A stretch of DNA of 64,000 nt from Rhina ancylostomus. Its lineage: Eukaryota. Shown piece by piece: positions 1,779 to 62,949 of this stretch. A model generated the notes under the pieces. It ran no database searches and had not been told where the DNA came from. It saw nothing but the letters and a program-made list of their open reading frames with translations. Made by a program: the position numbers and the translations under genes. Every line of letters begins with the position of its first letter. Positions within the stretch are counted from its first letter, which is position 1. The stretch is from NCBI GenBank assembly GCA_030265395.1, contig JARFYF010000053.1:36303724-36367723 (forward strand), written 5' to 3'.

Positions 1779-1814
1779 CTGTTTCTAGCAGCTTTCTTTT
1801 CAATGCTGTGATTT
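1779..1814 (-). CDS. Micro-exon 26 (36 nt): EITALKRKLLET
   Basis: ctctcttctttcgatttcag|AAATCAC...GAAACAG|gtcggg. Confidence 0.88.
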
Positions 1815-4800
1815 CTGAAATCGAAAGAAGAGAGGTCCTTAGGCATGAATTAGAAACAGAACAAGATCATTTGGGCGCTTAGATTTCTTTCATGCCTAAT
1901 TAAACTGTGCCATGTAGTTCCATTCCAATTACCCGTCTTTGTTCTTCATCCAACGAAGTGCTATCAATTTTATTCTGGGGATATCCAATCAAAATCGCGA
2001 TGGAAAATTATTCTAGATGCATTGCTTCTGGATTTTATTGCCTGTCTCCACCTTTTTCTCACTTACACAAGAAGCATCATTAACCCCCCCTGCTGCTTTT
2101 CTTGACTGCTCTACCCCCATCTGAGTGGACAGGATCGTTAGAAAAATCCATTGACTGGTCATCGATCCCATCTTTACTTTGACTATGCCTCCTTCCACAT
2201 TGCTTCCCGCGATGACGTGATTCAACTTTCCCAGTTGCTCCGGTTCCATTGTATTTGCTTCTGAGATTCCTTCCTTTTTTCCCTTAATAGCAGCTCCTCC
2301 TCCATGCGGCCTTTATTTCCAAATCTTCTGGTTTTATCTTTGCTCTTAACCAGAAGAAGGGTATGGGCCTTCTTGTACACAACATCCAATTCAGCAGCCC
2401 CCATTTTCAACCAATCACCCTCCATCATATCCACCAACTTCAACCTGATGCCACCATCAGGCGCGGTGTGCCTGGAGCTGTTTCCATAAGGCCTTTGAAA
2501 ATGTAAGCATGAGTGATAATTGAAACCTTGTACAATGCTGAATATCTGAAACATTTCCCCGTCAAAGCATCTTTGTTGTCCTAATGCTAGGATATCACAA
2601 ACCCTATAACGGCCAGTTCGTGTTCTTCTACCAGGAAATAATATGAAAGTGGCTGAAAATAAAAGGGTAGATTGGATTAACAAGATTGCAATGGGTGTGA
2701 TTACTGGATTATACAATATAAGGCCCAAAGAAGGATCATACAGGAGGAGAGAACGCTAGAGGTCCTTATGGGAGGCAGGGGGTCGGGTGGCATCTGTGGC
2801 ACAGTTGGCTGGGCTGTTGTTTTGGTTCAGTGGTATTTCCTAATAGGGACGGGGGTTAATGACGTAAGANNNNNNNNNNTCCCTGTTTGGATGCTGTCTG
2901 GTATGGTAACTGTTTCAAACGTTTTTCGTTTTCCCTGTCAGATTTCTAACATCTGCAGTTTTTTTGCTTTTCAGTTCTTGTCAACTTTGACGTAACTGAC
3001 ATTAACTTAGTTTCTCCATCGGTGCTGCCTGACTTGCTGACGTTTCCCAGCGCTCTCATTCATTTTAGATTTCCAACAGATGCTTTCTCCTGCACTTCGA
3101 AAATGCAACATTGTTTGTTCTTTTGTCCCTTTCTTCTATTCTCAGTGACCTCTCTTTACTTACATCACCTCCAGATATATGACCCGCCATTACCAAGACT
3201 CCATCAAGCTCCATGAGTCGACACCAATCCTTGTCATCCACTTGCTCCTTTTCGCCACCCTGTCATTGATATTTCCTTTGTTCTCACCACCCCTCTCACG
3301 ACCCCGAAACCCAATCATACCTATTTTCGAAACGTGCCCAGTTCTCCTGAAATGTCATTGACCTGAAAGCTGCAATTTCTCTCTCTCCAAAGTTGTTACA
3401 TGACCTGTTAAGTATTTCCAAGATTTTATATTTTTATTGAAATTTAAGACTCATTCTTCTGAAGGATGACGATAAACGGAAACACTAGTTATTTTAAAAG
3501 GCAGGAGTCACAGATAAGAGTAGAATGATGATACATTTTCTTTTAGCTTTCTTCGTATGACCCTCTTATTGAAGGCCCTTAAAAAGTGAGCGAGGCAATT
3601 TCTGTGCATATTATTTGCACAGATTTCTAGAATAGGCTTCGGAAGAAATAGTCAATATTATTATCGAATTGACAGAATTTGCAATTGGTCACAAACCTTT
3701 GAATGGGACTGCAAATTAACAGGCTCACTAACATGTAATTAACATGTAATTAATATTACCGACTGTTACCAATGAGAAGCAATGAGCGTTGATCGTTGTT
3801 ACTGTGGCCCAATGTTGTCCTATCCGAAATTTATTTTGCATTGCCTTGGATGCAAACTGTGTAGCTTTCTTTCCACAGTATACAATACCTGCATCCTTTT
3901 CACGCACTTCTTCTTCTGCAACGTGAAATCAAGCGGTAATTGAAGAAATACTATTTTTCACTGTTGTCCGAGTCTTAATAACCAGAATGCTTGCCGACAA
4001 TATGAAATACTTTTAAAACGTATGACATATAAAATATATATGTTCTCAAACTACATGAAAGCGGATGTGGTTTGCCATTTTCAGAGTGCTGTGGAAAAGT
4101 ATTTTATAACCAAGATATTTTTGATATCGCTATGATCCCATCTTAGAACGAAGCTTACCAGGAATGGTAGGAACGGGCCTGTTGGGTTTCTGAGCCTACG
4201 CCAGCATTTATTAAGGTTTAGACCAATCGTTTAGCTTCGTAGCATTTCCCAGCACATAGTCGAGAAAAGTATCCGTGCTTTGAACATCCTTAAATGTAAT
4301 GAACTTCAGAGCATACGCAGAAGTGCAGTAGGATAGCCGTAGCCGGGTGTCAGTGAATAACAGACAGGTCCAAGGCCCTTGCCGATAAAACCTGCTTCTA
4401 CTCTGATCATTAGTACTGTACAGACAATACATTACAATATTTATTTTTAACAATTCCATGATTGTTAAGTTAGCTCAAGTATTCAAATGTTTGGCCGTGT
4501 TTATTGAGGATAATATCATGTCCAGATTCTATCGTGACCTCGGCAGCTGTGTGTANNNNNNNNNNNNNNNNNNNNNNNNNNNNNNNNNNNNNNNNNNNNN
4601 NNNNNNNNNNNNNNNNNNNNNNNNNNNNNNNNNNNNNNNNNNNNNNNNNNNNNNNNNNNNNNNNNNNNNNNNNNNNNNNNNNNNNNNNNNNNNNNNNNNN
4701 NNNNNNNNNNNNNNNNNNNNNNNNNNNNNNNGAGAGAATAGGTTGCAGTGAAATAAGTGTGGGAATGTAGACGGATGGGATTGCTCTGAGCGGCGGGATA

Positions 4801-7800
4801 GAATGTATGGACCGAATGGCTTCTATCTATATTGTTGGAGAAAACAAAAGATGGAAAATTGCGCTGCTGGACGAAATCGGCTAACTCTTGGAATATCATT
4901 TGGGTCTGAGGAGATAGAATATGGAAATAATAATTAATTACTCTTCAGTTTTGATCATGTTAAAACACTAAGGGGATAAGAGGCAACATGGGTGCAGCAG
5001 TTCCTCGATCGTCAGGAGAGCATCCTCGCGAAGGTATATTTCATTAACTAAAGACTGGAAAGCTCTATAGAAATATGAAAGGCGGTTTTCTTGACGTTTC
5101 AAAAGTAAAGCAAAAAGAGGTTCGTAATCTATTCGCGGAGATGTACTTACCGTCTACATTGCCCTTCTTATTAATGTCTAAAATCACAAAACAGTTAAAT
5201 GACCAGAGGAATAGTAACAAGGAAACAGATGTATCACGTCCTTGCATTAACGGCGTGTGATTTTCTCGCATGCTTCTGTTTCCCCTCACAGCCTAAAGAC
5301 GTGCATCTGATAGGTTCATTAGTCAGTGAGAATTGTTCCTTGTATCTACGAACGGCGAGATCAGAGAGGAGTCAATAGGCATGTCAGGGAGTCAGTGAAG
5401 GAATAGGACTGATACGAATGTTCTGAGAGCTGTCAAAGACTAGAAGGGCAGAAAGTCCTTTTTTATGTCATAAAATAATGAGAAATACACTAAAATAACA
5501 GGAAATATCATAACGGTGGAGTTACGTTCCTCTTGCCATTCTAATAATTATTTTATTGTTATAATTTCCTGCTTTTCCTGTGGTTATTAAGATAATTTAC
5601 GACGTCCCCATGCCCTATTTTGGGAAAACCAACCACTGTGAACGTGTCGTTTTAATTCTGGAAACGATGTATCTACACCTCAGAATGGAAATTAAAACTG
5701 AGTTTTTTTAAAATCAAGTCTTCTTGTCGATTTAAACTGACAGGGAACAGAACTAGTAAAGCACACTGATTATTCAATCCGGTTCCTCGTGTACTTTTCA
5801 ATGGGGGTACATTACACTTTTAAGGAAAGCGAACAATTGGTCTGGAGGTGATATGAACGAGGCCGATACAAATCGTTAGTTTCTCGCTGGTGCGTGTTTC
5901 TCGTTTTCTTTTGTAACCCTCTCCACACCCCTGTCGAATATCTTACACCTACTGAACTCAGTGAAATCGACATACTTTTCATTATAATCGTATATTAGAA
6001 ATAACTCTTCAACATTTGAGTAATAAAATCTGCCTTTTGCAGAAGCAGAAAACATTTGTTGTAGAATCAAGTGAGGTGAAAAGAGGCGCCGTGGTCAATT
6101 TCTCACCTTCCAGTCAGGGTTTCGATCAGGTAAAATTTTAAATTATTTTGTATGTTATAAGAATTAGGCATGGACGTACTACTTCTGGGGTCGCGCTGTT
6201 ACATGCACGTTTTTCGCTTCGACAGCCTGTGAATCTATTCCACTGAAACAGTAATAGTAGTTTAGCCAAATACAACCCTATTCATCTTATCTTAATTGAC
6301 AGAAGGTGCACAGAAGAAAATAAATGCAAACACTTTGCAGATAAATACGATCTTCTGCCGTGTGTTGTGGGATTCGTAGCAATAGCTTGCCCATAAGTTT
6401 CGACATGCTGATCACAGAATGTCTTTCATTAATGTGTCATGAAGACCGTAACAGCTAAGACGTTTCTCCGTCTCTTCAAATAGTACAAGTGAATCTCTCA
6501 TGTATATATGAGATGTTTGATGTGGTTTTAAGGAGATACCCTACTGGCCTGCCTTCCCTGAATAATTCCCTGGGGAGGCATTCGTTACTGTTAGTAATCA
6601 ATTCTTGGAGTGATTTGCGAACAACTCCTGATTAACTTAACTCTTTCATTCATATTGGGCGTATCAACTGACTCGCGTCTTACCCAATAGAAAGGAATGT
6701 TAGATGAGATATTAGTACGTGCATTGGATGGGATGCGCCTTATTTCTCCATTTCAGTCTATCTTCATTGTTCCTGTCATGCAATAGTGAAGAAAATACCA
6801 ACCTTTCGTGCCTCACCTGCAATCAGCAACGATTTCTTCAGTTTTACAAGTTCTAAGTAAATATAACAGCAGCGATTTTTGTTGTGATTGGAATATCTTT
6901 TCCCACAGCGCTTTTCCCTTAAATTCGCACCAGAGAAGGGTATAGTTGTCCATTTCTCCGCATACTCCATCTCATTGCAGTTAACGATGACAGATGTTCA
7001 CTACACTTGTACATTGGTATTGACTCCAGGGAAAATTCACCCTATACTTTTATCCTCTAGTTCTCGTCTCGCCCAGCGTTATGGGAATAAGCTTGCATGC
7101 ATTCATACTTTCTACACCCCTCATAATTTTGTATACCTCTAAAAGATCTCTTCTCATTCTCACGTGCTTTAGGGAATAACTTCCTAGCCTTTTCAACCTT
7201 TCCCTATAACTCAGGTCCTCAAGTCCCGGCAACATCCTTGTAAATTTTCTCTGTTCTCTTCCAAGCTTATTGATACCTTTTCTGTAGGTAGCTGACCATA
7301 AGAGCACACAGTACTCTAATTTTGGCCCCACCGATGTCTTGTACAACTTCAACATAACATCCCAACTTCTGTACTAGATGCCCTGATTTATGAAGGCCAA
7401 TGTGCCAAAGGCTCTCTCTACGACCCTATCTGCCTGTGATGCCACTTTCAAGGAAACATTGATCTGTATTCCCACGTCCCTTTGTTGTACCGCACACTTC
7501 AGACCATTCATTGTGCAAGTCTTACACATGTTTGTCCTCCTAAAGCTCAACACCTCAATGGCAGATGGAATTTAATTCGATTTGCTATTGTTTAGCTCAT
7601 TAACTTAGCTGGCCAAGATCACGCTGCAAGCTTTGATAGCCTTCCTCGCTGTTCACAACGCCTCCAATCTTGGTGTCGTCTGCAAATTTGCTGATCCAGT
7701 TTACCACATTTTCATCCAAATAATTAATAAAGATGATAAACAACAATGGACTCAGCACCGATTCCTAAGGCACATCACTAGCCATAGGCCTCCAGTCAGA

Positions 7801-10800
7801 GAGGCAACCATCTACTCCTACTCTTTTGGTTCTACCGCTAAGCTAATGTTGAATCCAATTGACTACTTCATCCTGAATGCCAAGCAACTTAACCTTGACC
7901 AGCTCCCCATGTGGGAGGTTACCAAGAAGACAACGTCTTCTACCTTTCCCTCATCGACCTTCTTTGTAATCTCCTCGAAAAAACTCTGTCATATTGGTTG
8001 GACATGACCTACCACTACCATGTTGACTATCCCTAATCAGGCCCTGTCTATCCAAGTACTTATGTATACTCTCCCTTGGAATACCTTCCAATAACTTACC
8101 CACGACTGACATTAGGCTCACCGGCCTATAATTTCCCGGTTTATTCTGTGAAACTTTCTTGAACAATGGAGCGACATCAGTTATACTTCTGTCCTCTGGC
8201 ATCTCATCCGTGGCTGAGTCCGTTATAAATATCCCTGCCGGGGCCCCTGAAATTTCTGCAGTAGCCTTCCGCAAGGTCCGAGGAGACACCTTGTCAGGCC
8301 TCGGGGAGTTATCTCCCGTAATTCGCCTCAAGGCAGCCAGCACGTCCTCCACCAGAATCCCTGAGGCCCATGTTCTCAATACTTTTTTGCCTCCGTTCCA
8401 TAGTCTATATGTCGATTTCCATGTTCTCAATACTTTTTTGCCTCCGTTCCATAGTCTATATGTCGATTTCCAGAGTAAATAAGGATGCAAAACATTCATT
8501 TAAGATCCCTCCCATCTCCCTCAGCTCCATGCATAGATGACCACGCTGATTTCAAAAGGACCAATGTTGCCCCTCGTTATCCTTTTGACCTTAATTTAGT
8601 TTTAGAAACTCTTGGGATTCTCTTTCACCCTGTCTGCCAGAGCAATGTCATGACTTCATTTTGCCCTTCTGATTTCTCTCTTAAGTGTTGTTTTGCATTT
8701 CTTATACTGCTCAAGCGCCCCATTTAATCCCAACTGCCTATACCTGATATGTGCCACTTCCATTTTCTTTACCAGGGTCTCAATCTCCCTCGATAACCAA
8801 GGTTCCCGAAAGCTGCTAGCCTTGCCGTTTATTACAACAGGAACAAGGAACAAATGCTGATATATTTCTCTGTCAGAATGGTATGTGGCGGGAAATTAGG
8901 GTTTGTGGCAGGCTGTAGTGGTGACAAATAACTATGATGCATTTTCTAAATGGTACATACTGAATCCACGGTGAGCCAATGTGGCAGGTAATGAATCATC
9001 ATGCTTAAGCACATAGTGCCAATTGCGTGGGCTGTTTAACTGTGAATGGTGAACCTTCTCGTGTTACTTTAAGCTGCAGAACATTCAATGTGGACTGCAT
9101 CATGATCGTGACTTGTGCCTTGTAGACACCGAGAAGACTGAGAGGAAGCTGACGATATACAATCTCTTATCGACTCCTGCGGTTAGTACATTTATGTACC
9201 TGTTATGACGGCTGGAATGTGTCGTTTCCAATCGGAACAGTTCGTGTTTTGACACAACAGAGAATGATATTGACTGAGTTACCTTTCTCTTTCCACTCCA
9301 AGTTATTTTCTGCAACAAGAGAGATAGGGTTTTTCGATGTCACCGGTTGCTTATTTATACTTTTTACCTAACTTTCAATGCAAAACCTTTCGCCAAATAT
9401 TACTTCAACCACATGGACACTGAGTTCGATAAACCTGAAAGACCCGAGAAACCCCCAATTATGAATTACGATCAAACGGTCATGTGCATTACTTTGTAGA
9501 TGTGCTACACCTCATTTTAATGAAGCTGATTTTCCTTTGCTGAAACATTTTTCCTTGTTCCAGCTGTTACTTGTAGACATACCCAAAGATAAACATGCTA
9601 GATATTATCTTCATAAGATTATGAGAAATGCATGCTAGGCAAATCCGTGCACTTTATTCATCGTGAACTATGGCATTAACGGAAAACCATGTCATCCAGG
9701 GCCTCGAATCTGGATTGAAATTTTGACTCATATGCGGCCGGCTGCTTCTGATTCCTTTTATTTATAATCACAATTTGCACTTCTATCGCTTCATTCTAAG
9801 CCACTGGTTACATACCAGGTGGAAATTTAAGGCAGAATATCCGTGTTCCACTTTTACCAGAGTCAATATGTGACAAAGGCGATGTTCGCGCGATCCAGTT
9901 ACCCTACACCAGGAACAGATTGAAATGAGCGCAAAGTCGTGGGTTTCCAACGCACACGAAGATCGGAATAGAAGGAGGGCTGTGTCTTCAGGTTTCTTTG
10001 CCTTCCTTTGAGCGTCAGTGGCAAAAAATAACATTTATTTTTAGTTCGTGATTCCTATCTCCAGGCTCAAAGGACTGAAGCCGATTAAATATCATGACAT
10101 CTGTCATTTTGCCGTCAGGTGAGGCAGCCTCAGTACAGATGGAGAAAACGGAACACATCTCATTTGAGAAAGAGGAAATTCTGGAAAATCTGCTCTTGTT
10201 CTCTGCAGAACAGCGACCTAATTTAACAGACATATTTCTCCTCATGACGTGGCTTATGACTGGAGTCCCCGATCATTTCATGGGATTGGCATTTAAAACA
10301 AACTACTTACAGTTCAAAGTTTTAATTGATTTTTCCGTATTGTTGGCTTTTGGATACCCCACCCCCATCTCACGTGACCAAGGTGTGGCGAACCAACGAG
10401 ATGGCACCTCCGCATTCAGCCCAGGTATGTGCAGGCGAGTGGATTCTACAGAAAGGATGATGTTCGGCGAACGCAATTCAGCTTGCCAGGTCCAGGACCG
10501 AGTGTTCGCCGAACAGTGTGTTGGGTGTGAAAGTCATTAACGCTGTGCTCTGCTACGGCAAATTTTTATTCCATAATACAGTATAATAACTGTTGCGGAG
10601 TCTTCAAGTCACAGAGATACAGCTTGGAAACAGGCCCTTCGGCCCCTAGTGTCCGCACCGACGATCAACCACCCATTTTGCACTAACTCGGCATTAATTC
10701 CATCTTCATTTTCCGCACATTCTCTTTACCTCTCCCTAGATCTTACTAATAGTGGATCCAAAAAGTTCTAATGAAGTTCAAATTGCTCGTCTGTCCTGTC

Positions 10801-25800: not shown

Positions 25801-27433
25801 ATCTATCATCCAACATGAATGTGACCCCGGCTTTACATTTTCATGGGATGAACTGAACAGAATACCGGAAGAACAGCGCCTCTTCTTAAAACACCAGAGT
25901 TCTCCGAGAGCACCAATCATGGAATACTGCCATTGATGACTTTATTTTCATCTTGAAACTTAATTTGTTCTATTTAATTTTAATGTTCATTCTCTTAAAC
26001 TTGTAATTGTCAGTTATAGTGATATGAGTGGCAAATAAATCTCCTACGTTATTAACCAGCTGTAACGATTGTTTGATGTCACCCAAAGCAAATATGCTTA
26101 GGACGCACAGCCTGCTGACAATAGAGCGTTTCTTGAGTGTAGAATTCGCAGTGAGTGGACTGTTTCCAGGATTGTCATAGTTGGCGTGGTACAAGTAGAG
26201 AATACGTCCATTAGTAAGTGAATAATTAGAATCTGTTGAAACAATAAGACTGATATCTTGCAAATGAAATATTTTGTCCCAGCTACAATGGCCTGTTTTT
26301 TTTTAGCGCATCATCCATTGAGTGACATGACTATGAAACCTGGACCTGGTTGGTCCAGACTTCGCTGTGCTGAGAACAACGCTGACAGGATGAAATATAT
26401 TGCTTGACTTAAATGCTTTAGTAAACTCAAATAAGGGTAGTTGAGAGATTGCCGCTTTGGGTTTGAGTGCTGCATGAAACCGTGGGGATCCGCGGCGACC
26501 AAATCTGCAGTAAATATCCACAGTTTGAGAAACTTAGACTAGAAGTGGATGAGCTGGAATCTAAGATTCGGAAACTGCAAAGAGCCAAGGAAGGGGAATA
26601 GTTACCCGGAAGCTTCGTTCCAGGACGCAGTCAAATATCGCTGTCAATTTCGTCAGACAAAAGGGACAGGATGGTGTGACTTCGAGTGAGGCAGATGTTG
26701 CCCTTCAGACATAGAACTGGAGGAAGTAGACCTTGTAGACACACAATGGGTACACCATTACCGCAATAGATTTCATTACACCCGTGTGTATTTGAAATAA
26801 AATAATCTGACGTTGAACCTAAATCAACCTACGGTCTCCGAGTGAATCGGCTGGTATTCATCTATTGATATCTGATTTTGTAGTACTTACTCACTGATTT
26901 CTCGCCTATGTCCCCGATTGAATGCACAGACTGCTTATTTAGTTCCCAAAGGGGTCGACGTTTTCCCTTGTTACTCTATTGCCCTTAATATACTTGTAAG
27001 ATATTTTGCGTTTTCCTTAAAGTTGCCCGCTAGTGTTATTCCCCGACCAAGTTCATTCTGCTAATCACATTATAAAGTACAATCTTACTCATGATATACT
27101 GCTGTGGGGAATCTCCTCTTTCCAGTTCTTTAAACCTTCCACAAGCTACCTTTTTTAACTAACTCTCGATAATCTCTAGGATAGGGCTCTTTCGACCAGT
27201 TGGCCCTATCTTTCACCATTGAATGCTGATCCTAAGCTGTCACTCCTTCATTGTAGAATAATACCTCGGTCGCTTGTAGCCTTACAAACATTAGCTCTAT
27301 GTCCACATTTTCCAGATGGCGTATTTTTAACTTTCTGAATTCGAATTTCTGATAGACTGCACTTGAATCGGGCTGGCTCCAGAGTGATAATGAGTAAAAT
27401 AAATGGGGGTGTGGAGAACACTTCGAATTGAAT

Positions 27434-27488
<55 letters not shown>

Positions 27489-27588
27489 NNNNNNNNNNNN
27501 NNNNNNNNNNNNNNNNNNNNNNNNNNNNNNNNNNNNNNNNNNNNNNNNNNNNNNNNNNNNNNNNNNNNNNNNNNNNNNNNNNNNNNNN

Positions 27589-27660
<72 letters not shown>

Positions 27661-32901: not shown

Positions 32902-32945
<44 letters not shown>

Positions 32946-53900: not shown

Positions 53901-56900
53901 ACCGCAGCAATTTGCCCTCCACTTTGGTTGAGATAAATTATAATCAAAACGTTTTCCATTGACCTGTATCGTGCAGATTGTCTTTTAGTTTCCCAACTTC
54001 TAAAGAAAGACAAGTGGAAACATGTGAGAGAAGTTAAATTGTTACACGCTCGTAGAATATGCACATTGTGAAATAGAACGACGTACAGTGCTGCCTCTAA
54101 GACGATAGAAATAAAAGGAAAGGCAAATTTAACGAATCATTGACAAAATTACCAAGGATAGACTAAGGCCGGACGAGAATAAATAATCTATTACATGAAG
54201 GAGAAAGTAAGACAGAAAGAAATACCCAGGTCAAGAAGGAAGGAAGTACTGTAAAGTGAAGATGTGATTACAGAGGAAGGAAGAAGCAATGTGACATCNN
54301 NNNNNNNNNNNNNNNNNNNNNNNNNNNNNNNNNNNNNNNNNNNNNNNNNNNNNNNNNNNNNNNNNNNNNNNNNNNNNNNNNNNNNNNNNNNNNNNNNNNN
54401 NNNNNNNNNNNNNNNNNNNNNNNNNNNNNNTGGACATTAAAGAATCTAGGCACTTCTAACGGCAAGCTAAATGCAACTTTGTGTGGAGTCTATTACGGAC
54501 TCAGCACAATCGTTTTAATCTTGCTGGTGCACATCGAGATTCAGTAACAAAATAGGTAATGCTGATTCGATTAAGTAAAACCTAAACTCACTGCTTACCT
54601 TTTTCTTTCTTGTTGAGTTTTAGTTCTAGATGAAAGACAATATTGATCAACGTATTTATTGGGCTGGAATTTGGTCTCAGTCGAAGTTGCGGAGGCCGCT
54701 CGTTCATGTATTTCCCAATATTCAATCATACTATTTGCTTTCAAAGTGAACATCGCTGCAGGAGTATATCAGATCGCATGACACATAAGAGCAGAATATC
54801 CATTCCATTGTGAATAGAACGGCCTTAAGAAATTTGCATTGAGTTCAAGTCATGATGAATTTATAAGTCATGCAAAAATCATGTATTAGACCCTATCACC
54901 AAATTAAATCGTTGAGCAATATATTCAGGCTATCACCTTACTTAGTATCTCCCATGCAAATATATCAAGAATGGCAATAAAATAAAAATCACCTGCATAT
55001 TATCCCATTCTTATATCAGGATAGGAGATGCTTCATTACGGGCGGACACTTTACACGCTGTATTATCTCTTTAGCCCCAGATTTAAAAATAAAAGCTGTA
55101 GATTTAAGTTAGTTGAAGTCCCATTCTCCCTTCCAGAGAATGTGTACAGACCCGTCAAAAAGTTGATTTTCCGCATACCCGTTAACCAATGCAAGCTAAG
55201 CAAACTGGCTAGAGTCAGTGCTGAATTGACAGGTGAGATCTTTGAAGATTCACACATATTTGATGATGTTGCCTCTGTGTTATTTTGTCATTTCTTGTTA
55301 TTTTCGCGTTTGCAACAAATCCCACAAGTTATCCACGTTCTGATTGGCCTGAATACTCGAGATGCACAGATATCCAGTGCAAGTCTGCAGATATCTTATT
55401 TAGTGTCGCACGTCTGCATTATAATTGTGAAACTGCATGTTAGAAAAAGTATTCTGTGGAATGAAATGCACATCAGAAAAGACCGAAAGCTTTCAGACCG
55501 CGTTGTGACACACTTTCAATATTCAGCGCCGTTTAACTAATCGAAATAAAATGTTGCAACATCAATGCTACATCACACCAACATGATGTCTACTGAATCT
55601 CAGCCAAACATTTTATTGAAAGTGTTTTGTTCAGTTTATCTAACGTTTTTTCATCTTATTCCTTCGTTTCAGGTTTCCCATAAATAAGTGGTGCTTACTG
55701 AGTGTAGCCAGCATTAGTGTTCCACAGTTTGTTTGAAACGATAATTTGTCAAATTTGTGGTTCCTCTCACCGATATCCTGGATGTAGTCTTTCAACTTTC
55801 CTATACCTATAAAGTAGAAAATGTAACGTTCTCATTCCGTTCACTCGACTTCCTTAAAATCCTTCTTGACAAAGGAAGGTACACTGAGCAATAACGAACA
55901 TTTCTATATTTTTAATTGTCATAGAATCATAGAACAGTACAGCACAATACAGACCCTTCTGACCATAATTTTGTGCCGACCTTTCAATCTCGTCTATGAC
56001 GACCTAACCCCTTCCTCCCACATATTCCCCTATTTTAAATTCCTCCATATACTTGTCTAGCAATCTCTTGAATTTGAACAATATACCTGCATCCACCACC
56101 ACCCTAGGCAGCACATTCCATGCCCCAACTGCTCTCTGGGTAAAAAAAAACATACATCAGATATATCCCTTGAACTTCCCACTCATTACTTTAACACCAT
56201 ACCCTCTGTGCCCTGGGAATGAGGCGCTGGCTGTCTACTCCATCTATTCCTCTCAGTATTTTGTATACTTCTATCATGTCTCCACTCATCTTCCTTCTCT
56301 CCAAAGAGTAAAGCCCTAGCTCCCTTAGTCTCTCCTCATAATACATACTCTCTAAACCAGGCAGCATCCAGGTAAATCTCCTCTGCACCATTTCTAACGC
56401 TTGCACATCCTTTCTAAAACGAGGCGACCAGAACTGGACACAGTACTCTAAGTGTGATGAAGGAAGAGCGAAGCCGGTTTCTAAAACAGACAATTTGTTT
56501 GATATTGGGCAAAATCAGTCCATTTCATAAGAGATACCATGCACCTATATATATGTATTCGGCGTCAATCCTCTTGAAATTGTTGGCTAGATCTCATTAT
56601 GAATATACTGCACACAACATCAAGAATAACAGGAGGCAGGAGAAACGAATTGTTTGGGTCGCGGCCAGTAAGGGAGCACTCGGAGGTGGTTTGCATGGTC
56701 AATTTTATGAAACCTCTTGCCAGGTAAGAAGCAAGAGGTCTACCTAAATCACCCATAGCTTAACGTACCTCCGGATTTTTTCCCAAGAATTCCCCAGATG
56801 TTGATGACGAGGCTTTTTCCGGAGTGTCTGCAGCGTTGTCTGAAAAACGGCCAGGTTTCTAACGGAAAGTAAACTCACTTTGTTCATTCATTGATATTCG

Positions 56901-59900
56901 TAGTATAATTAATGGAATTCACTTGGCGATTTCAGAGGATATTAACACGTGGAAGGTTTTCTTTAGGGTCCAGAGGTATATGCAGGGCAGAGTGAACGAG
57001 TTTAACAGAGATATATTTTATAAAAAAACAGAATTAATTCTGAACCTAATTTACAATTATTAATTTATTCTCAATTATTAATAATAAATGTTATTCTGGT
57101 TTTATGTTATTTCCTGTTATTTATATATCCCAGTTTCCCCTGTTGGTAGCTCCATCGTCGTAAAGTCATAGAGCCGTACAGTTATGTAGCACGGAAGCAG
57201 TCCTTTTGCCCCAACTCGTCTATGCTGATCCAGAAGCCTTCGGTGAGTAATCTAGATCTATAGATCATTGCAATTGCAACAAACAATCTGCAGCATGGGA
57301 TCTTTAAAAAAGAGCAACGCGACTGTCCTTATGATCAAAATGTAGGGAAGTGTAGGGAGGAATTTGAAATCATCTTCGGGAGAGAATTTAGGATTGTGGG
57401 GTCTGAATTGTACCCACACAAAGCTCTTTAGTTAGCAGTGTATGAATGAATGCAGCGGATAGTGTGGCAAGTATTCAGTCGTTTAAACGGTGCTAGATAC
57501 CAGAAAAATATATAGGCAAGACATAATGCCTAGTTTGCACATATGCACAAACTTCTGATGTTCTCTAAGTTCCGAAGCTGATGACAGTCATACAAATAGT
57601 TACGAATGGAAATGCACATGTCAATTTGCAGATAGCATCAATGCAATCAATTCAACTCAGCTTTTTCTGATGATGATAATTCAGAAGTATACACCAGGAA
57701 GTCCACTTTAATATCTCCATCGTTTCTCTTGAATGTAATATTATGAGGTGTTTTAACACATGATTCTGATGGCCGGCTGAAACCGTGATACCAGTTCTCT
57801 GCTGGATTGCATGTTCACAGGAACGATTGGGTTAGGAAGTGAATGCATCATAGTAATTACGTTTTTTCTTTAGCAGTTGGAAATAAGGGGCGATCCTTAT
57901 TATAGTGGCTGCTGTTACCCCCTGTCCCGAACAAAAGGGAAAACAATGGCGACGTAAATAGGACATAACGTACAAAGACAGGTCAGTTGGTCCATCCTGC
58001 CCACGGCGGCATTTCTGTTCTTTTTGAACCCTCTGCCACTTTTTATGATTTAAAGATATGAGTATATGCTGTTTTCCTTTCATTCCTCATTTTCATGCAC
58101 AGCCTTCTCTGAAGTATATCCACGCGATTTGATGCAATCTCACCACTTTATATTTGTTATCTGCTCAAATTTATGACAGACTTGGTTTTACTTACTTTTT
58201 TCTGCTCTGTTCAGACTTTGTTCTGCAAAATAATACACGCACATTATTGGAAATACAAAGAACCTACACGGAAAGGGAAAACACTGAAATTATTTCATCG
58301 CAGTAATTCATACGAAATTATCCATCTTACTCCAATGCTCTCGCATTTTACTTATGTTCCCATGACGGAATTCAGATATATTGGTTCAAGATAAGCTTAT
58401 TTTGTCCGGGTTTCGCTGTCATACTGATAGTCCTGTGTACTTGCAACGATAATATTCAGATACAAAATAAACAGAAAAAAGATACAATGGATCACACAGT
58501 AGCTACCCATTGCAAACAAGTTTCTTTGTCATACAACTCCCCAGTACATGCTGGAAGCACTCAGCAGATCAGGTAACATTCTACAGAAAGAGGAAGAAAG
58601 TTACGCATCAGATAAGATATTTTTCGTCAAAACAGGGACAGAGAGATTAGAAATGTGTTTTAGTTGCAGAAAGTGGCCGGAAGGGATGGATCAGATAGAG
58701 TGCATTTCTGATTTCGTGCGGGGACAGATCAGATGGATTAATGGAACAGGTTGAGGGTGGTTACTGATTTTTCTACGTCATGTGTCATTAATTTTAGCTC
58801 TCTGAGCCTTCTAAACAGATCATACTGTAATAATGGATAGCTAAAATGTGGACCAATATCACAGCTGGATGACCTTCAGTGGAAATGTTTAGTTTCACTA
58901 TAGACAGAGAAAGCGAGTTACCCCAACAGCTGGAAAAATGTCTATGTCTCTGTTACTTAGGCTACAGATCAATTTAGATAACGAAGAGCCATTTGCATTG
59001 AATGGAAGGGGAAAGAGACTGAATGGTCTTCGTATTTGTGCAGCCTTCGTATATTGATCATCACCCGTACGTTGCTTTCGTGGCAATAGATACAGGGCGT
59101 ATTATCAAACAATTTAAAAGTTATTTTGTGCTGGAACTAATCTTCAAGATGATTTCATCTCATTCCAATGGATTTCGAGACTGGTTGCTCTTCTTTCTGT
59201 ACAGACATTAGAAGGTTATCTTTTTAAATACTGCAATCAGATTTCTTAAAAATCTTGGTCAGATCAAGAAAACCGGCTCTTTTGTAATCCAAGAGAGAAG
59301 ACCCAATTTTGTAAAGATGCTCTAAAGCTGCCTAATTGATTGAAGAACTGCCGTCTTATTTTCTCCATTCAGCAGAAGTTGTTTCCAAGAAAGATGGTAT
59401 TTTTAAACTACTTTTTAAGATGCAGGACCTGGTGCAACTGGGATTGGAGAAACATTATATCAATATATCGTTTTTCTAAATTATTTCTTGAATGTTTTAC
59501 AATCATCCGCGCTATTAAACGATACCATTCCTCCATGTCACACAATGATGAACTTCCTTTTCCATTTTCGACATTGATTCTACACGTCAATATTCACGGT
59601 TGGTGGAAATGTCATACGGCTTGTCTGGAAATGTCTCAGAAATGTATTACCACCATTAATCATTCTACACTTCAACCGCCTTTTGCAGTAAGTAACCAAT
59701 GGTACTTCAGTTTTTTACCAGTAGTTCTGCAATGAATCAAGTCCATTTAACATCCACACTGCTGAATATTCTAAGCTGCATTCTAGTATATTTCTGCTGC
59801 AGGCTTCCAAAGGTATCCTTTCTGGCACGTTCCACTTAAAAGGAATGCAACATATCAGAAACTGCTTATCCTAAAGGTAATGTAACTAAAATAACCAGTC

Positions 59901-62900
59901 GCTGCCTCATAAGCCAGAAACTCACTGAAATTTAAAATACTGTACTTTGTTTTTTCATTTCTCTGCTAACTTCAAATGATATCATTTCCAGCTTAACATC
60001 TGCGGTTCATATTGTTTTGGCTTCGTACTGACTCAATTATCAGCAACACTTCATCCTGTGAGAAACTCCAATCTTCGTTTGGATGCAAGATCTAAAAACA
60101 CCACTGTGTTGAGCTCCGTTGAATATATACACGAGTTAGACAAACAAGTCAATTTTGTACTCACCCCGATCGTAAATATTATTTTTCAATGTTTCTAGTT
60201 CTGCAAGAGATAAATAAAATTAATATAAATGCTAAGTGTTGAACTTGACTCAATGCAGCACCTTTCAAAATGATAGGAATATTTTCTCGTGTTGGCCACG
60301 ATGTTAACGGGCCATATTAGATCTATCATCTATTTTTCATCTCTCGTGATTTCAGCATTATTTCCATGACTCCAGTGGCTATTGCAAACTTACTCTCCGG
60401 CAAGCTCAATTCAGTAACCTATGCCTTTGTCACCCAAAGAAGTTTCAGTTGGGAAAAAGATCCGATTTTCAGATATTTTACTTGATTTAGCAATACTCGA
60501 ATTCACAGAATTCCGAAACCTGCAGGAACTCATTAGTTCAGTGGACTTGAAAATCCGCCATTAACATATTTGAAAAATGTTATTATGAGCAATATCCAAA
60601 CTCGTATATTACTTCCCTAACTCAGAATACACGTAGATAAGTGAGTTGATTAAAACGGAGAAAGAGGAACTCGGAATTGCAAAGAATAATGTTGAGTTGG
60701 TCTAAGATGACTATAGCTATTAAAATGTCTCGGAGTTATCTTCCGAGCCTTTCCAAGCTAAGACTAATGAGTCATTGTGCCGAGTGTCAGGCAATATAAG
60801 ATTTACTGTTATTTTGAGTGTCGGTGGCATTGTTGAGTCATAACAACTATGGACAAGAATTAATCCACAATTTGAAAAGATAAAGTGGAAGGATGATTTA
60901 TGCTTTTCGCGCTTTTTATGGCGCATTTTCTTCAAATTGCAGAAAATTAAGAACATCGTGCCATCGTCTGGAAATTATGGGTGCTCATTTATGCACAGAA
61001 TTGCCTCATAAGTATCACGATGGCATTTCGAACACTAAATATATGTCTGTCAGCTGTTGCTGTTGATGGAATAATCCTGTCCTTGTAATAGCTAACTGAA
61101 ATGGAACTTCATTTGCCTTATAATATCCATAATTTTCTCACATATCTGTTTTAAATTTGTTCTCAAACACATTGCTCCCGCGAGAACAACAAGGACCGTA
61201 CCTATTCCAATATAATCATACAGCTGAACTTCTACTTCTGTCCAAAAATACCAATGATATCTTCCATACTGCCTTCAGTTTCTTCAGTTCATTTTTAAGG
61301 CGCTGCTTGTAGAATTTGACGCAAATATTGTCTTGAAAGTTTCAACACAGACTTCTTTTGTATTCTGTACGTACATGTATCAGAGTTAACACCTGGTCTT
61401 TCAACATAACTTGCCCGTTTAAATGACAAATATCCATATCTCCTTGAAGGTTCACGATCTTTCAGAATGCAAACTTTGTGTGATCTTTGAGCTTTAATCA
61501 GGTATATGGATGGCTCTGCTGAAAAGATTCTGAAGTTTTTTCTTCCATTATCACCTTTGATTTTGCTGGAAAGCTTTGTTTCTAAAATTAAAAGAAGATA
61601 TTCGAGTTACAATTATATTTACCAATCAGCTAACATGTACAAATAGACGTATGACCTTGTCAATAAATTTCGTAGCACTCCTTCGTCTATTAGTGCGAAA
61701 TATGGTCACGCTCAGTTCAATGTTCCACGAGTCCAAATGTGTCTCCACAGACTCTGTGAAATGCCAGGTGGTTTTTCCACTTGTCCTCTTCTTTTTCCAA
61801 TATCCTACGTTTATTTAATGCTGAAGTCTTGAGTTTTGTATACAAAGTCCAGAACTATCTCTGCTATGTTGTGAAGAAGTTGATACAAAAGGTCGATATT
61901 TGTCCAAGTTAATTTGGTCGCGTATTAGATTTACAAATAGTCTGATCATCGACCAAATTCACTGATTATCTTAATTATTGGTAAACAGTTTCATAGATGA
62001 AATAATGATTCTTGCAGATCAAATTGACAACAATTTGCACAAGTCTAATTAGATTAAGTAAAATAATATTTCATTAAATGCCTCATGGTTCGCGGTNNNN
62101 NNNNNNNNNNNNNNNNNNNNNNNNNNNNNNNNNNNNNNNNNNNNNNNNNNNNNNNNNNNNNNNNNNNNNNNNNNNNNNNNNNNNNNNNNNNNNNNNNNNN
62201 NNNNNNNNNNNNNNNNNNNNNNNNNNNNNNNNNNAGGGGAAGGAGCGTGTAAATTTTAACGTGTTGGGATTCATTGCCTTTGAAGACACTATATGTTTGA
62301 TGGCGGAGTTTGTGGACTTCACAGAAGTATCCGAATGAAACGTTGCTGGTTGAAGCTGAACACCAGCGAGGTAGGTGAACACTGCGTTCACTGTCGCCAA
62401 TTGCAGAGCGAATGACCGTAATGGCGAAGATTGTCTAAGAAATAATGGTACCCCTCTGGTATGTATATTAAAGCACTCTTTGGATTTTTTTTGTATCTGC
62501 ATCCTGTCACACAAGTCGAAAATAATGCATTGCATATACCTTGTAGACACTGTTTTATATGCCAACCCATGTCATTTATATATGAGATCATATCTAGCTA
62601 GAGGCCAAGGCTAACTGGATGCTCACCATCACACTTCTCCACCAAACGACTGAACATTTCCTGGCAAAATTCAGTTCAATATCTGTGAAAGATGTGAAAC
62701 TGCTCTGGCTGTAATTTTGCAAGGAAAAGAAATGTCTACGGCGTGGCGACTATGGCCCGGAAGGAAGAAAATGATTTAATCGTCATGTTAAGGTAGAGNN
62801 NNNNNNNNNNNNNNNNNNNNNNNNNNNNNNNNNNNNNNNNNNNNNNNNNNNNNNNNNNNNNNNNNNNNNNNNNNNNNNNNNNNNNNNNNNNNNNNNNNTA

Positions 62901-62949
62901 GAGATATACTCACCGTATTCAAGATTATCTTTCTTTACTTTTTCAAGCG
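1779..62949 (-). CDS. Spliced gene model (partial): long coiled-coil protein segment encoded by >=26 phase-1 micro-exons (798 nt, 266 codons); span includes introns; 5' end outside window, 3' end unresolved
   Basis: 26 AG..GT-bounded segments of 24/27/36 nt on one strand. They join without a stop into a heptad-periodic, E/K/L-rich peptide and are mutually similar. Family identity cannot be established from this window. Confidence 0.9.
3889..3915 (-). CDS. Micro-exon 25 (27 nt): EEEVREKDA
   Basis: ttgatttcacgttgcag|AAGAAG...GATGCAG|gtattg. Confidence 0.88.
5151..5177 (-). CDS. Micro-exon 24 (27 nt): DINKKGNVD
   Basis: ctgttttgtgattttag|ACATTAA...GTAGACG|gtaagt. Confidence 0.85.
5240..5470 (+). 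mobile_element. SINE-like remnant (V-SINE-type body)
   Basis: ...cctcacagcctaaagacgtgc...aggttcattagtc... resembles fish/shark SINE bodies from memory; not searched. A related copy lies on the minus strand at about 39870-40200. Confidence 0.45.
6817..6852 (-). CDS. Micro-exon 23 (36 nt): ELVKLKKSLLIA
   Basis: gttatatttacttag|AACTTG...ATTGCAG|gtgagg. Confidence 0.88.
7040..8850 (-). mobile_element. CR1-type LINE ORF2 fragment (decayed)
   Basis: Broken ORFs contain CR1 motifs: PLFKK..NKPGNYRPVSLMSVVGKLLE, GLIRDSQHG, LEYCVLLWS, QRKFTRMLPGLEDLSYRERL. Confidence 0.92.
8368..8472. repeat. Perfect 51-bp tandem duplication inside the CR1 fragment
   Basis: tgttctcaatacttttttgcctccgttccatagtctatatgtcgatttcca occurs at 8371 and again at 8422. 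Confidence 0.95.
9283..9309 (-). CDS. Micro-exon 22 (27 nt): ENNLEWKEK
   Basis: tatctctcttgttgcag|AAAATAAC...GAGAAAG|gtaact. Confidence 0.9.
11229..11264 (-). CDS. Micro-exon 21 (36 nt): EITALRKRLQEA
   Basis: tttcatatacttttag|AAATAAC...GAAGCAG|gtcagt; paralogous to exon 26. Confidence 0.9.
12727..12800. mobile_element. Start of an LTR-like repeat (same family as 41107-41398), running into an assembly gap
   Basis: TGTCAC..TGTTGATCC.GAGCAAACTCACAGAGAACCCAA.TGCGGCACAC.GATACAAGACTGGAGTCAGGA is near-identical to 41107-41180. Confidence 0.8.
13012..13705 (-). mobile_element. Rex1/Babar-type LINE 3' fragment
   Basis: KELVADFKKR..PVYINGAEVERVESYPFLGVNITNSLPWSNHVDAMAKKAYQCLYFL..LKKFGMSP; RTTRLKDSLYPTVIR. 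Confidence 0.88.
15205..15447. repeat. Degenerate (TG/TA)n low-complexity tract
   Basis: Alternating purine/pyrimidine TG-rich run. Confidence 0.75.
17590..18080 (+). mobile_element. CR1 LINE 3' end
   Basis: GDLMEVHKIMRDIDK...ESKTR.HG; typical CR1 tail. Further, older CR1 debris follows to about 18680. Confidence 0.85.
19692..19718 (-). CDS. Micro-exon 20 (27 nt): DEELREKDG
   Basis: ttttttgcgatgttgcag|ATGAAG...GATGGAG|gtgatg; paralogous to exon 25. Confidence 0.88.
21538..21561 (-). CDS. Micro-exon 19 (24 nt): DFSKCRID
   Basis: cttctaatctggtttag|ACTTTT...TTGACG|gtgagt; resembles exon 24 (both start AC and end GACG). Confidence 0.75.
21890..22910 (-). mobile_element. Decayed LINE (CR1/L2 clade) fragment
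   Basis: Minus-strand translation KAPVRDVMEYSPLAWIGAASTTLAELDTIE is a typical LINE ORF2 C-terminus. A related short piece lies at about 16770-17000. Confidence 0.75.
23857..23883 (-). CDS. Micro-exon 18 (27 nt): EETLHSKEK
   Basis: tgtgcttcccacag|AGGAAAC...GAGAAAG|gtaacg. Confidence 0.9.
24248..24360. repeat. (GAAA/GGAA)-rich simple repeat
   Basis: Purine-only tetranucleotide-like run. Confidence 0.8.
24740..24775 (-). CDS. Micro-exon 17 (36 nt): EKEDLSKNLKEL
   Basis: ttgattgaatttcag|AAAAGG...GAGTTGG|gtgaga. Confidence 0.85.
27436..27659. repeat. (GT)n microsatellite spanning a 100-N gap
   Basis: Direct observation. Confidence 0.98.
28090..29160 (-). mobile_element. Old CR1 LINE RT fragment
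   Basis: GPQIVTRYINDLAKGSECTVAISAGDTKI is a decayed form of the ...YINDL...KFADDTK RT motif. Confidence 0.75.
29491..29517 (-). CDS. Micro-exon 16 (27 nt): EESLLSTQT
   Basis: cttcccacatcttatgcag|AGGAATC...CAAACAG|gtaatg. Confidence 0.85.
29906..29932 (-). CDS. Micro-exon 15 (27 nt): ELEEKLKTA
   Basis: ttacttttattgcag|AATTGG...ACTGCAG|gtgaac. Confidence 0.85.
30820..31040. mobile_element. Two inverted Penelope-like terminal sequences forming an imperfect palindrome
   Basis: Left arm (..aactcagc..gtcaggcaacatc..gacagtcaatgtttcgggtcgaga) is mirrored by right arm (tctcaacccaaaacgtcgactg..gttgcctga..gctgatgagtt). Confidence 0.7.
31604..31630 (-). CDS. Micro-exon 14 (27 nt): DGQCVQKIK
   Basis: ttatcataaacag|ATGGAC...ATCAAAG|gtaaat; weaker acceptor, but its 3' end (AAAATCAAAG) is identical to exon 2. 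Confidence 0.75.
32227..32262 (-). CDS. Micro-exon 13 (36 nt): EFNKLKIRLDET
   Basis: tgtctttttttccctcag|AATTTAAC...GAGACAG|gtgaga. Confidence 0.9.
32340..33960 (+). mobile_element. Old CR1 LINE RT/3' fragment, interrupted by a gap and (CA)n
   Basis: FDKVPRGRFV and ESQPFIICVSDL motifs; CR1-like tail near 33700-33950. Confidence 0.7.
32902..32941. repeat. (AC)n microsatellite next to a gap
   Basis: Direct observation. Confidence 0.97.
35869..35895 (-). CDS. Micro-exon 12 (27 nt): DDKLRTKEK
   Basis: ctattatacttacag|ATGATAAG...GAAAAAG|gtatat. Confidence 0.88.
37111..37146 (-). CDS. Micro-exon 11 (36 nt): ELNNLNKDYTDI
   Basis: tctttttcttcctttcag|AGTTAA...GATATAG|gtgcgg. Confidence 0.88.
37828..39440 (+). 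mobile_element. Rex1/Babar-type LINE (RT region plus 3' end), frameshifted
   Basis: [40 protein letters not shown]; tttattgactacagctccgcctttaa (FIDYSSAFN); GRITNNDASEYRKEI..LNVRKTEELIID. Confidence 0.92.
40390..41500 (+). mobile_element. Old CR1 fragment hosting the LTR insertion at 41107-41398
   Basis: LLTIYMNILDK motif; the CR1-like tail resumes after the LTR (gggcacatga|tggagaagggaatt). Confidence 0.6.
41107..41398. mobile_element. Solo-LTR-like insertion with TGTCA...TGACA termini and 5-bp target-site duplication CATGA (internal gap)
   Basis: CATGA at 41102-41106 and 41399-41403; inverted termini; second copy at 12727. Confidence 0.85.
41569..41595 (-). CDS. Micro-exon 10 (27 nt): ESSLKTKTK
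   Basis: tcattttgtttcag|AAAGCAG...ACTAAAG|gtaggg. Confidence 0.88.
42140..43010 (+). mobile_element. Old CR1 RT fragment
   Basis: KSLRLDGMYPRNL; aactacaagtcagtcagtctg; ggtcagcatgaacttgttaagggaaaatcgt (decayed SQHGFVKGKSC). Confidence 0.75.
43861..44480 (+). mobile_element. Penelope-like element 3' part: GIY-YIG endonuclease C-terminus, pyrimidine tract and hammerhead-like tail
   Basis: 43861-44010 reads TSHSHTDMSFHGLLHCHVQAGRRLEEHHLIFCFRILQPDGLNIDFSNLR*, the E..hI..l....P.GLN end of GIY-YIG nucleases; CTGATGA core at 44351. Confidence 0.85.
46356..47098 (-). mobile_element. Probable solo LTR (about 740 bp)
   Basis: TGTTG...CAACA termini; minus-strand TATAAA (46775-46780) upstream of ATTAAA (46443-46448); GC-richer than flanks; no clean TSD seen. 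Confidence 0.7.
47994..48029 (-). CDS. Micro-exon 9 (36 nt): DVEKLRDNLQEA
   Basis: gatttctttttcag|ATGTGG...GAAGCAG|gtcagg. Confidence 0.9.
49260..49730 (+). mobile_element. Old CR1 3' end
   Basis: MGESRTKCH.L motif and CR1-like tail. Confidence 0.65.
49842..49868 (-). CDS. Micro-exon 8 (27 nt): EQRLGKKEK
   Basis: tttcttcattttgattcag|AACAAAG...GAAAAAG|gtaccg. Confidence 0.88.
51085..52370 (-). mobile_element. Old CR1 fragment(s)
   Basis: LDFQKIYDKVTHECLVCK...LAWIESGLTGMKQ is a decayed form of LDFQKAFDKVPH...WIE.WL..RKQ. Confidence 0.75.
53964..53999 (-). CDS. Micro-exon 7 (36 nt): EVGKLKDNLHDT
   Basis: cttgtctttctttag|AAGTTGGG...GATACAG|gtcaat. Confidence 0.88.
54599..54625 (-). CDS. Micro-exon 6 (27 nt): ELKLNKKEK
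   Basis: ttgtctttcatctag|AACTAAAA...GAAAAAG|gtaagc. Confidence 0.9.
55771..55806 (-). CDS. Micro-exon 5 (36 nt): SIGKLKDYIQDI
   Basis: cattttctactttatag|GTATAGG...GATATCG|gtgaga. Confidence 0.85.
55918..56455 (-). mobile_element. Relatively young CR1 3' end
   Basis: HLEYCVQFWSPRFRKDVQALEMVQRRFTWMLPGLESMYYEERLRELGLYSLERRKMSGDMIEVYKILRG. Confidence 0.92.
58196..58222 (-). CDS. Micro-exon 4 (27 nt): EQSLNRAEK
   Basis: tattattttgcag|AACAAAG...GAAAAAA|gtaagt. Confidence 0.9.
60165..60200 (-). CDS. Micro-exon 3 (36 nt): ELETLKNNIYDR
   Basis: ttttatttatctcttgcag|AACTAG...GATCGGG|gtgagt. Confidence 0.9.
61202..61237 (-). CDS. Possible extra or alternative 36-nt micro-exon: EVEVQLYDYIGI
   Basis: tatttttggacag|AAGTAG...GAATAG|gtacgg; right size and phase, but breaks the 27/36 alternation and fits the heptad poorly. 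Confidence 0.3.
61555..61581 (-). CDS. Micro-exon 2 (27 nt): ETKLSSKIK
   Basis: tcttcttttaattttag|AAACAAAG...ATCAAAG|gtgata. Confidence 0.85.
62914..62949 (-). CDS. Micro-exon 1 (36 nt): (A)LEKVKKDNLEY
   Basis: cttgtttatag|CGCTTGAA...GAATACG|gtgagt; first residue depends on the upstream exon, which is not in the window. Confidence 0.85.

What the first reader, a model, noticed from the sequence alone, without database searches (positions are those of the whole stretch)
1779..62949. Hidden gene made of at least 26 micro-exons (24-36 nt) that encode a long coiled-coil rod
Seen: 26 segments on the minus strand, each bounded by AG (mostly with a good pyrimidine tract) and GT, of only 27, 36 or 24 nt, all phase 1-1. 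In genomic order they give 266 codons with no stop and a regular hydrophobic repeat. Nearly every exon starts with E or D. Coding sequence is about 1.3% of the span and every exon is far below the ORF-track cutoff, so ab initio annotation could easily miss it. Known: phase-1 micro-exon arrays encoding heptads occur in the cytoplasmic tails of butyrophilin, MOG and chicken BG genes (mainly 21-nt exons), and triadin has many tiny K/E-rich exons. Inference: this could be the tail or stalk of a lineage-specific membrane or immune protein, or a structural rod. I do not recognise the peptide, and no Ig, TM or B30.2 domain is visible in the window.
Basis: partly seen in the sequence, partly recalled or inferred. 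Interest (0 to 1): 0.92.

Follow-up and report, generated by a model that had tools for sequence, protein, structure and literature searches.

The report
Giant micro-exon coiled-coil B30.2 ray gene
The 26 tiny segments are the middle of a roughly 510,000-base run of about 180 micro-exons in a ray-like fish that would spell a very long protein rod and likely ends in a B30.2 recognition domain, which keeps three of the basic pocket residues that human butyrophilin 3A1 uses to sense phosphorylated metabolites.

Summary
Observation confirmed. A 26-exon, 798-nt set is recovered in the window. On splice score alone, 111 segments of 27 or 36 nt lie on the minus strand of the locus against 7 on the plus strand; only 4 of 111 have a stop in the phase-1 frame. 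The chain runs about 510 kb, roughly 180 exons and 1,790 codons, keeps heptad register and points at one PRY-SPRY (B30.2) exon 99 kb beyond the window. That exon is 79% identical to an electric-ray database model that joins collinear micro-exons to it. Skate, catshark, basking-shark and chimaera models share the subfamily. No Ig, RING or transmembrane exon was found in 354 kb upstream; the first exon is unknown. The domain keeps basic residues aligned to BTN3A1 K393, R412 and R469 (8 of 10 subfamily rows, 0 of 161 others), but not H351. No RNA evidence was obtained. Verdict: real, largely unannotated, a new variant of the butyrophilin/BG heptad-exon design.

The parts
62914..62949 (-). 36-nt phase 1-1 exon, first in the window. 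The array continues upstream, outside the window, with about 120 more micro-exons to extended coordinate +410,449 (genome place = 36303723 + coordinate on G000:C53)
61555..61581 (-). 27-nt exon
61202..61237 (-). doubtful 36-nt candidate, probably not an exon (breaks heptad register)
60165..60200 (-). 36-nt exon
58196..58222 (-). 27-nt exon
55771..55806 (-). 36-nt exon
54599..54625 (-). 27-nt exon
53964..53999 (-). 36-nt exon
49842..49868 (-). 27-nt exon; 85% nucleotide identity to an exon 220 kb upstream, with unrelated flanks
47994..48029 (-). 36-nt exon
41569..41595 (-). 27-nt exon
37111..37146 (-). 36-nt exon
35869..35895 (-). 27-nt exon
32227..32262 (-). 36-nt exon
31604..31630 (-). 27-nt exon with weak acceptor; kept because it restores heptad register
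29906..29932 (-). 27-nt exon
29491..29517 (-). 27-nt exon
24740..24775 (-). 36-nt exon, weak acceptor
23857..23883 (-). 27-nt exon
21538..21561 (-). 24-nt exon, variant of the cysteine-bearing 27-nt type
19692..19718 (-). 27-nt exon; 81% identical to exon 3889-3915
11229..11264 (-). 36-nt exon; 75% identical to exon 1779-1814
9283..9309 (-). 27-nt exon
6817..6852 (-). 36-nt exon
5151..5177 (-). 27-nt exon
3889..3915 (-). 27-nt exon
1779..1814 (-). 36-nt exon, last in the window. The array continues downstream, outside the window, to a 27-nt exon at extended -98,512..-98,538 and the terminal PRY-SPRY (B30.2) exon at -99,352..-99,996 (L020:4-648, minus strand)

Best explanation
The segments are exons from the middle of an array of about 180 phase-1 micro-exons over 510 kb that likely form one gene and would encode a cytoplasmic coiled-coil rod of about 1,800 residues, likely spliced to a C-terminal B30.2 domain that is predicted to bind an anionic, probably phosphorylated, ligand. 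Shown: exon excess, frame, strand, heptad register, the B30.2 exon, relatives. The rod is built from a 9-residue and a 12-residue module that mostly alternate (9+12 = three heptads), with occasional 9+9 inserts. Because every exon is symmetric, modules can be gained, lost or skipped without losing frame. Inferred: the rod self-associates and holds paired B30.2 domains at the end of a spacer of roughly 260 nm (0.15 nm per residue, recalled), working like the intracellular half of a butyrophilin or a BG tail that has been stretched and, as far as can be seen, has lost its Ig and membrane parts. Untested: expression, full-length splicing, start exon, location in the cell, oligomer state, ligand.
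For: Splice-only test over 510 kb: 59 segments of 27 nt and 52 of 36 nt on the minus strand, other lengths mean 2.9 (max 8), plus strand 4 and 3; stops in 4 of 111 in the phase-1 frame against 57 and 68 in the other two. Hydrophobic period 3.50 over 1,790 residues, no proline, no hydrophobic segment; exon-order shuffles 0 of 200 reach the observed power, 5.43 against max 2.57. Nine disjoint pairs of internally duplicated exons are 75-93% identical while flanks are 16-50%; differences by codon position 9/14/23 of 78 each (pairs were chosen for high identity). Only 1 of 84 B30.2 matches in the genome lies on this contig. Narcine model XP_069797409 joins six blocks whose best matches among 179 exons lie in genomic order, then the B30.2. 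Catshark XP_038671249 is 945 aa of coil plus SPRY with no other Pfam domain above cut-off. Best solved-structure matches are BTN3A1 B30.2, E 4e-25, ahead of TRIM58, 2e-20. Positions aligned to K393, R412, R469 are basic in 9, 10 and 9 of 10 subfamily rows against 28, 14 and 6 of 161 others (residue list from PMC4303140, passage read).
Against: No transcript evidence from this species. Database models are automatic and all much shorter (175-945 aa) than the predicted 1,970 aa; the Narcine model lacks most exons that lie between its matched blocks, and it covers none of the window's exons convincingly. No start exon was identified, and eight N runs lie in the 36 kb where it should be. A plus-strand PR-SET/zinc-finger gene sits inside one 14-kb gap of the array, which could mark a gene boundary. 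The pocket lacks H351, H378 and R418; H351 is described as key for phosphoantigen sensing (PMC7348870, section read). The 10 subfamily rows are kin, not independent, and the 161 controls were not checked for BTN3A. The tree does not place the subfamily with butyrophilins or with TRIMs (quick search, long stem).
Confidence: 0.58

Rival explanations
1. It is a true membrane butyrophilin/BG-type protein with an extremely long cytoplasmic tail; leader, Ig and transmembrane exons are hidden in assembly gaps, or a short signal-anchor exon was missed.
For: Exon design (phase-1 heptad micro-exons, then one B30.2 exon) is that of BTN and BG tails (PMC8813856, PMC5938342, passages). BTN3A1 is the best solved match. 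Eight N runs, 958 N, lie upstream of the first micro-exon. A 44-codon frame at extended 416628-416497 looks like a signal peptide, and the skate model begins with a hydrophobic stretch.
Against: An Ig profile that finds 22 of 23 held-out Ig segments has no hit better than E 2 among 25,028 frames in 1,064 kb. The 416.5-kb frame ends in phase 0 or 2 and no bridging exon was found. None of 10 subfamily rows has an Ig motif or a transmembrane segment by my regex and hydropathy test.
Confidence: 0.24
2. Same gene, but mainly a structural rod (cytoskeletal spacer, tropomyosin-like or tether), with B30.2 as a constitutive docking end rather than a sensor.
For: About 90% of the predicted protein is coil. 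A soluble BG tail is reported to act on actin-myosin (PMC8813856, PMC5938342, passages). The gene is single-copy here and lies away from the main B30.2 cluster on contig C68.
Against: Rod sequence and apparent length differ strongly between species while the basic positions of the B30.2 are kept. This rival is not exclusive of the best explanation.
Confidence: 0.22
3. A RING-less TRIM derivative, as the database names (TRIM39-, TRIM58-, TRIM69-, A33-like) suggest.
For: Coil plus PRY-SPRY is the C-terminal half of many TRIMs; TRIM58, TRIM7 and TRIM21 domains rank just below BTN3A.
Against: No RING/B-box profile hit better than E 0.59 in 1,064 kb (this profile had no held-out control). Fish TRIM coils are encoded by 96- and 234-bp exons, not micro-exons (PMC2657112, passage).
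Confidence: 0.1
4. The array is two or more tandem genes, or mostly unused exons, and the window's exons are not joined to the B30.2 exon.
For: Nested opposite-strand gene at extended +181 to +184 kb; relatives' models are short.
Against: Register is kept across the whole array; longest gap between scored exons is 18.9 kb; no second B30.2 exon on the contig; the window is 99 kb from the B30.2 exon with an unbroken chain between.
Confidence: 0.1
5. Chance pattern or dead pseudogene.
For: The B30.2 exon is out of frame as assembled.
Against: The break is a 100-N gap with a duplicated edge; a contig of run X2 joins L020 365 to 490, which is in frame. All controls reject chance.
Confidence: 0.02

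Closest known systems
Butyrophilins (BTN3A1 intracellular region)
   Same: Heptad region followed by B30.2; best sequence match among solved structures, including the helix before PRY; W391 and basic residues at 393, 412 and 469 kept.
   Different: About 1,800 coil residues instead of a short heptad region; no IgV, IgC or transmembrane exon found; H351, H378, R418 not kept.
Chicken BG genes (PMC5938342, PMC8813856; passages read)
   Same: Long coil written in many tiny split-codon exons whose number varies; the true heptad spans exon boundaries.
   Different: BG uses 21-nt exons (27-38 repeats in the genes described), has leader, IgV and transmembrane exons, is described without B30.2, and is a multigene family. 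Here 27- and 36-nt exons, about 180 of them, B30.2 present, one copy.
Automatic chondrichthyan models named A33-like, TRIM39-like, TRIM58, TRIM69-like (XP_069797409/411, XP_055510696, XP_038668997, XP_038671249, XP_042191566-8, XP_078422387)
   Same: Same B30.2 subfamily (SH-aLRT 99) with coil segments of the same 9- and 12-residue style; this gene is a member of that unstudied group.
   Different: They are 175-945 aa and look 5'-truncated; their TRIM names are not backed by a RING or B-box.
TRIM proteins with PRY-SPRY
   Same: Coiled coil plus B30.2.
   Different: No RING or B-box found; exon structure unlike fish TRIMs.

Membership tests
B30.2 (PRY-SPRY) proteins | PRY followed by SPRY | tested here: met
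   SPRY E 2e-15, above cut-off; PRY E 0.0013, below cut-off; model of the Narcine orthologue matches B30.2 folds, E about 1e-9
Butyrophilin | IgV and IgC domains | tested here: not met
   No Ig hit in 1,064 kb with a controlled profile; gaps remain, so not final
Butyrophilin | Transmembrane segment before the heptads | tested here: inconclusive
   No convincing phase-1 hydrophobic exon in extended 410-470 kb; start exon unknown; eight N runs
Butyrophilin | Heptad region in small exons, then B30.2 | tested here: met
   BTN layout from PMC8813856 and PMC7348870 passages
BTN3A-type phosphoantigen sensor | Pocket H351, H378, K393, R412, R418, R469 | tested here: not met
   3 of 6 positions basic; both histidines and R418 differ
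BTN3A-type phosphoantigen sensor | Binds prenyl pyrophosphates | not testable with these tools
   needs a binding assay
BG | Leader, IgV, transmembrane exons and 21-nt tail exons | tested here: not met
   1 of 179 exons is 21 nt; no IgV; B30.2 present
TRIM | RING and B-box | tested here: not met
Chondrichthyan coil + B30.2 micro-exon subfamily | B30.2 in the distinct clade, with 9/12-residue coil modules | tested here: met
Expressed gene | Spliced transcripts in this species | not testable with these tools
   no RNA run was available to lay

The most novel reading that the evidence does not exclude
Cartilaginous fishes have a soluble, butyrophilin-derived sensor: a BTN3A-like basic B30.2 pocket for phosphorylated metabolites or phosphoproteins, carried on a 250-nm coiled-coil arm whose length is set by adding or skipping micro-exon modules. 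It would show that a phosphate-type pocket existed in B30.2 domains long before mammalian phosphoantigen sensing, or arose twice.
Probability: 0.15. Interest if true: 0.85.

Novelty: new variant of a known kind. Interest (0 to 1): 0.6.

Why it matters
It is a half-megabase vertebrate gene that annotation captures only as short, misnamed fragments, so similar genes are probably missed elsewhere. It takes the heptad-exon design of butyrophilin and BG tails to about 180 exons with a different module (27+36 nt). The conserved basic pocket gives a direct, cheap test of what the domain binds and bears on where butyrophilin-type metabolite sensing came from.

Tried and rejected
RNA support: no RNA holder listed. 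Runs X1 and X2 cover introns, so they behave as DNA; laying X2 on window 44500-63500 gave a cut table that could not compare exon with intron divergence. Full-length orthologue: searches of longer proteins stop at 2,000 aa and gave only the 280-aa Narcine and 945-aa catshark models. Start exon: ATG-to-phase-1 scans and internal-exon scans of extended 410-446 kb gave no convincing candidate; an 82-nt exon-like segment at 435833-435752 has strong splice sites but no support as coding. The signal-peptide-like frame at 416.5 kb was set aside for phase mismatch. Oligomer state: no complex prediction was obtained, no verdict. The origin of two unnamed subfamily proteins (P0031, P0044) was not established, so range beyond cartilaginous fishes is open. 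The careful tree did not finish; only the quick tree is used. CD23-type lectin stalk (recalled idea) rejected once the terminal exon proved to be B30.2. The 'zero stops' in the 1,790-residue peptide is mostly by construction, as candidates with stops were filtered; the valid test is. Literature: searches (0 papers; 3; 2; 17, 15 listed; 4) listed no title or abstract start describing this gene; subscription papers are not covered and no supplements were read (those of PMC12841164 may list shark B30.2 genes).
Full report
Observation. A generic splice-site score found a sharp excess of 27- and 36-nt AG..GT segments on the window's minus strand. Without any filter for stops or composition there are 17 such segments against 1 on the plus strand and a mean of 0.65 (max 3) in 60 local shuffles.

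Extent. The window is G000:C53:36303724-36367723. I fetched 300 kb downstream and 700 kb upstream and extend window numbering to them. The chain runs from +410,449 to -98,538. On splice score alone this stretch has 59 segments of 27 nt and 52 of 36 nt, other lengths averaging 2.9, the plus strand 4 and 3; 4 of these 111 have a stop in the phase-1 frame, against 57 and 68 in the other frames. A leave-one-out profile plus splice score passes 153 of 258 candidates in the array, 0 of 80 on the plus strand and 0 of 93 outside it. My working set has 179 exons: 160 scored, 11 of 12 second-round ones (four with GC donors) and 8 added by eye. It is approximate, and 44 kb of N in 132 runs lie inside the array.

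The rod. The set gives 1,790 residues rich in E, K and L, with no proline and no hydrophobic segment, and a hydrophobic period of 3.50. The 36-nt exons are hydrophobic at codons 2, 5 and 9 (95, 84, 87%), the 27-nt exons at codon 4 (76%) with lysine at codon 7 in 57 of 89; a 27+36 pair makes three heptads. Of 178 neighbour pairs 114 alternate 27/36 and 42 are 27/27, so alternation is a tendency, not a rule. Genomic order matters: 0 of 200 exon-order shuffles reach the observed heptad power. Nine pairs of internally duplicated exons remain 75-93% identical while their flanks are at 16-50%, with more third-position differences (23 against 9 and 14), as expected under purifying selection, though the pairs were picked for similarity.

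The end. At -99,352 a phase-1 acceptor opens a PRY-SPRY exon, L020:4-648 on the minus strand. It is split by a 100-N gap with a duplicated edge; a contig of a related organism joins the two sides in frame. It is the only one of 84 B30.2 matches on this contig, and the next best in the genome is 42-44% identical. It is 79% identical to Narcine bancroftii models XP_069797409 and XP_069797411, which marks the source as probably a ray. The Narcine model's N-part holds six blocks whose best matches among the 179 exons lie in genomic order, from -15,300 to -98,512; its two isoforms differ by the last 27-nt exon. It lacks most exons lying between those blocks, through skipping, loss or incomplete modelling. 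It does not reach the window's own exons, so their link to the B30.2 exon is inferred from the unbroken chain.

Relatives. Models from electric ray, skate, catshark (two), basking shark and chimaera, and three unnamed proteins, form with this gene a 10-row clade, SH-aLRT 99 (quick tree of the 75 best-scoring domains after dropping five near-duplicates). None has a RING, Ig or transmembrane segment by my tests. The longest, catshark XP_038671249, is 945 aa of coil plus SPRY and lies in a sister branch. The tree does not resolve a BTN or a TRIM origin.

The start. No first exon was identified. An Ig profile that recovers 22 of 23 held-out segments, and a RING profile without such a control, find nothing better than E 2 and E 0.59 in 25,028 frames over 1,064 kb. 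Upstream lie single-exon GPCR-like frames and a NACHT-like frame (named from recalled motifs). Eight N runs in the 36 kb before the first GPCR keep a hidden exon possible.

The pocket. The best solved-structure matches are BTN3A1 B30.2 domains; a model of the Narcine protein (mean pLDDT 62; helix 16-75) matches BTN and TRIM B30.2 folds. The BTN3A1 pocket is lined by R412, R418, R469, H351, H378 and K393 (PMC4303140, passage). In the alignment, W391 and K393 face W and R in an ungapped stretch; R412 and R469 face R and K (BTN3A1 numbers counted by me from H351). All three basic positions are kept in 8 of 10 subfamily rows and 0 of 161 other domains. H351, H378 and R418 are not kept, and H351 is called key for phosphoantigen sensing (PMC7348870, section read). 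I therefore predict an anion-binding pocket, not BTN3A1 function. The rows are kin, and spatial clustering of the residues was not checked.

How it likely works. A long parallel coiled coil would pair two chains and present B30.2 domains at its tip, like the intracellular half of a butyrophilin or a BG tail (PMC8813856, PMC5938342, passages). Symmetric exons let the rod change length without losing frame. Whether cells tune it by splicing is untested. I put a real coding array at about 0.97, one gene ending in this B30.2 at about 0.88, no Ig or membrane part at about 0.7, and the anion-binding reading at about 0.35.

Novelty. It works like a BTN/BG tail but fails the BTN, BG and TRIM membership tests that could be run. 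My paper searches listed nothing describing it. PMC12841164 (passages) treats shark butyrophilins and, in the passages seen, not this gene. The scan's own notes hold 19 findings in at least five genomes for these words, and the eight shown are from other genomes and read the same way; I had reached this reading before seeing them, and they are not independent support. A word search for the pocket found no note. Verdict: new variant of a known kind, interest 0.6.

Noticed in passing
L022:7578-9875 (extended +181.6 to +183.9 kb), plus strand: A PR-SET domain exon and a C2H2 zinc-finger exon (PRDM-type gene) lie on the opposite strand inside a 14-kb gap of the micro-exon array.
   Followed up: partly
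L050-L051 region (extended -194.4 to -196.0 kb), minus strand: Intact single-exon Kv1 channel gene, best match Kv1.2/KCNA2 (L050:3984-5588); a second Kv1-like frame near -282 kb on the plus strand.
   Followed up: partly
extended +446 kb to +745 kb, both strands: At least seven similar single-exon GPCR-like frames, plus a NACHT-like 579-codon frame at +601 kb (names recalled from motifs).
   Followed up: no
G000:C68 (loci L082-L093): Most of the genome's B30.2 matches cluster on this contig, probably the TRIM/BTN cluster; not checked for MHC genes.
   Followed up: no
extended 284063, 148174, 128898, -62169: Four well-scoring array exons use GC donors.
   Followed up: no
window 21538-21561 and extended -15300, -48600, -59577, 107709: A third, 9-residue module type, often with cysteine, recurs at 27/27 steps; 19 cysteines in the rod. 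Role unknown.
   Followed up: no
window 7951-8499, 13161-13532, 38955-39380: Decayed reverse-transcriptase-like repeat fragments in the introns (recognised from recall).
   Followed up: no
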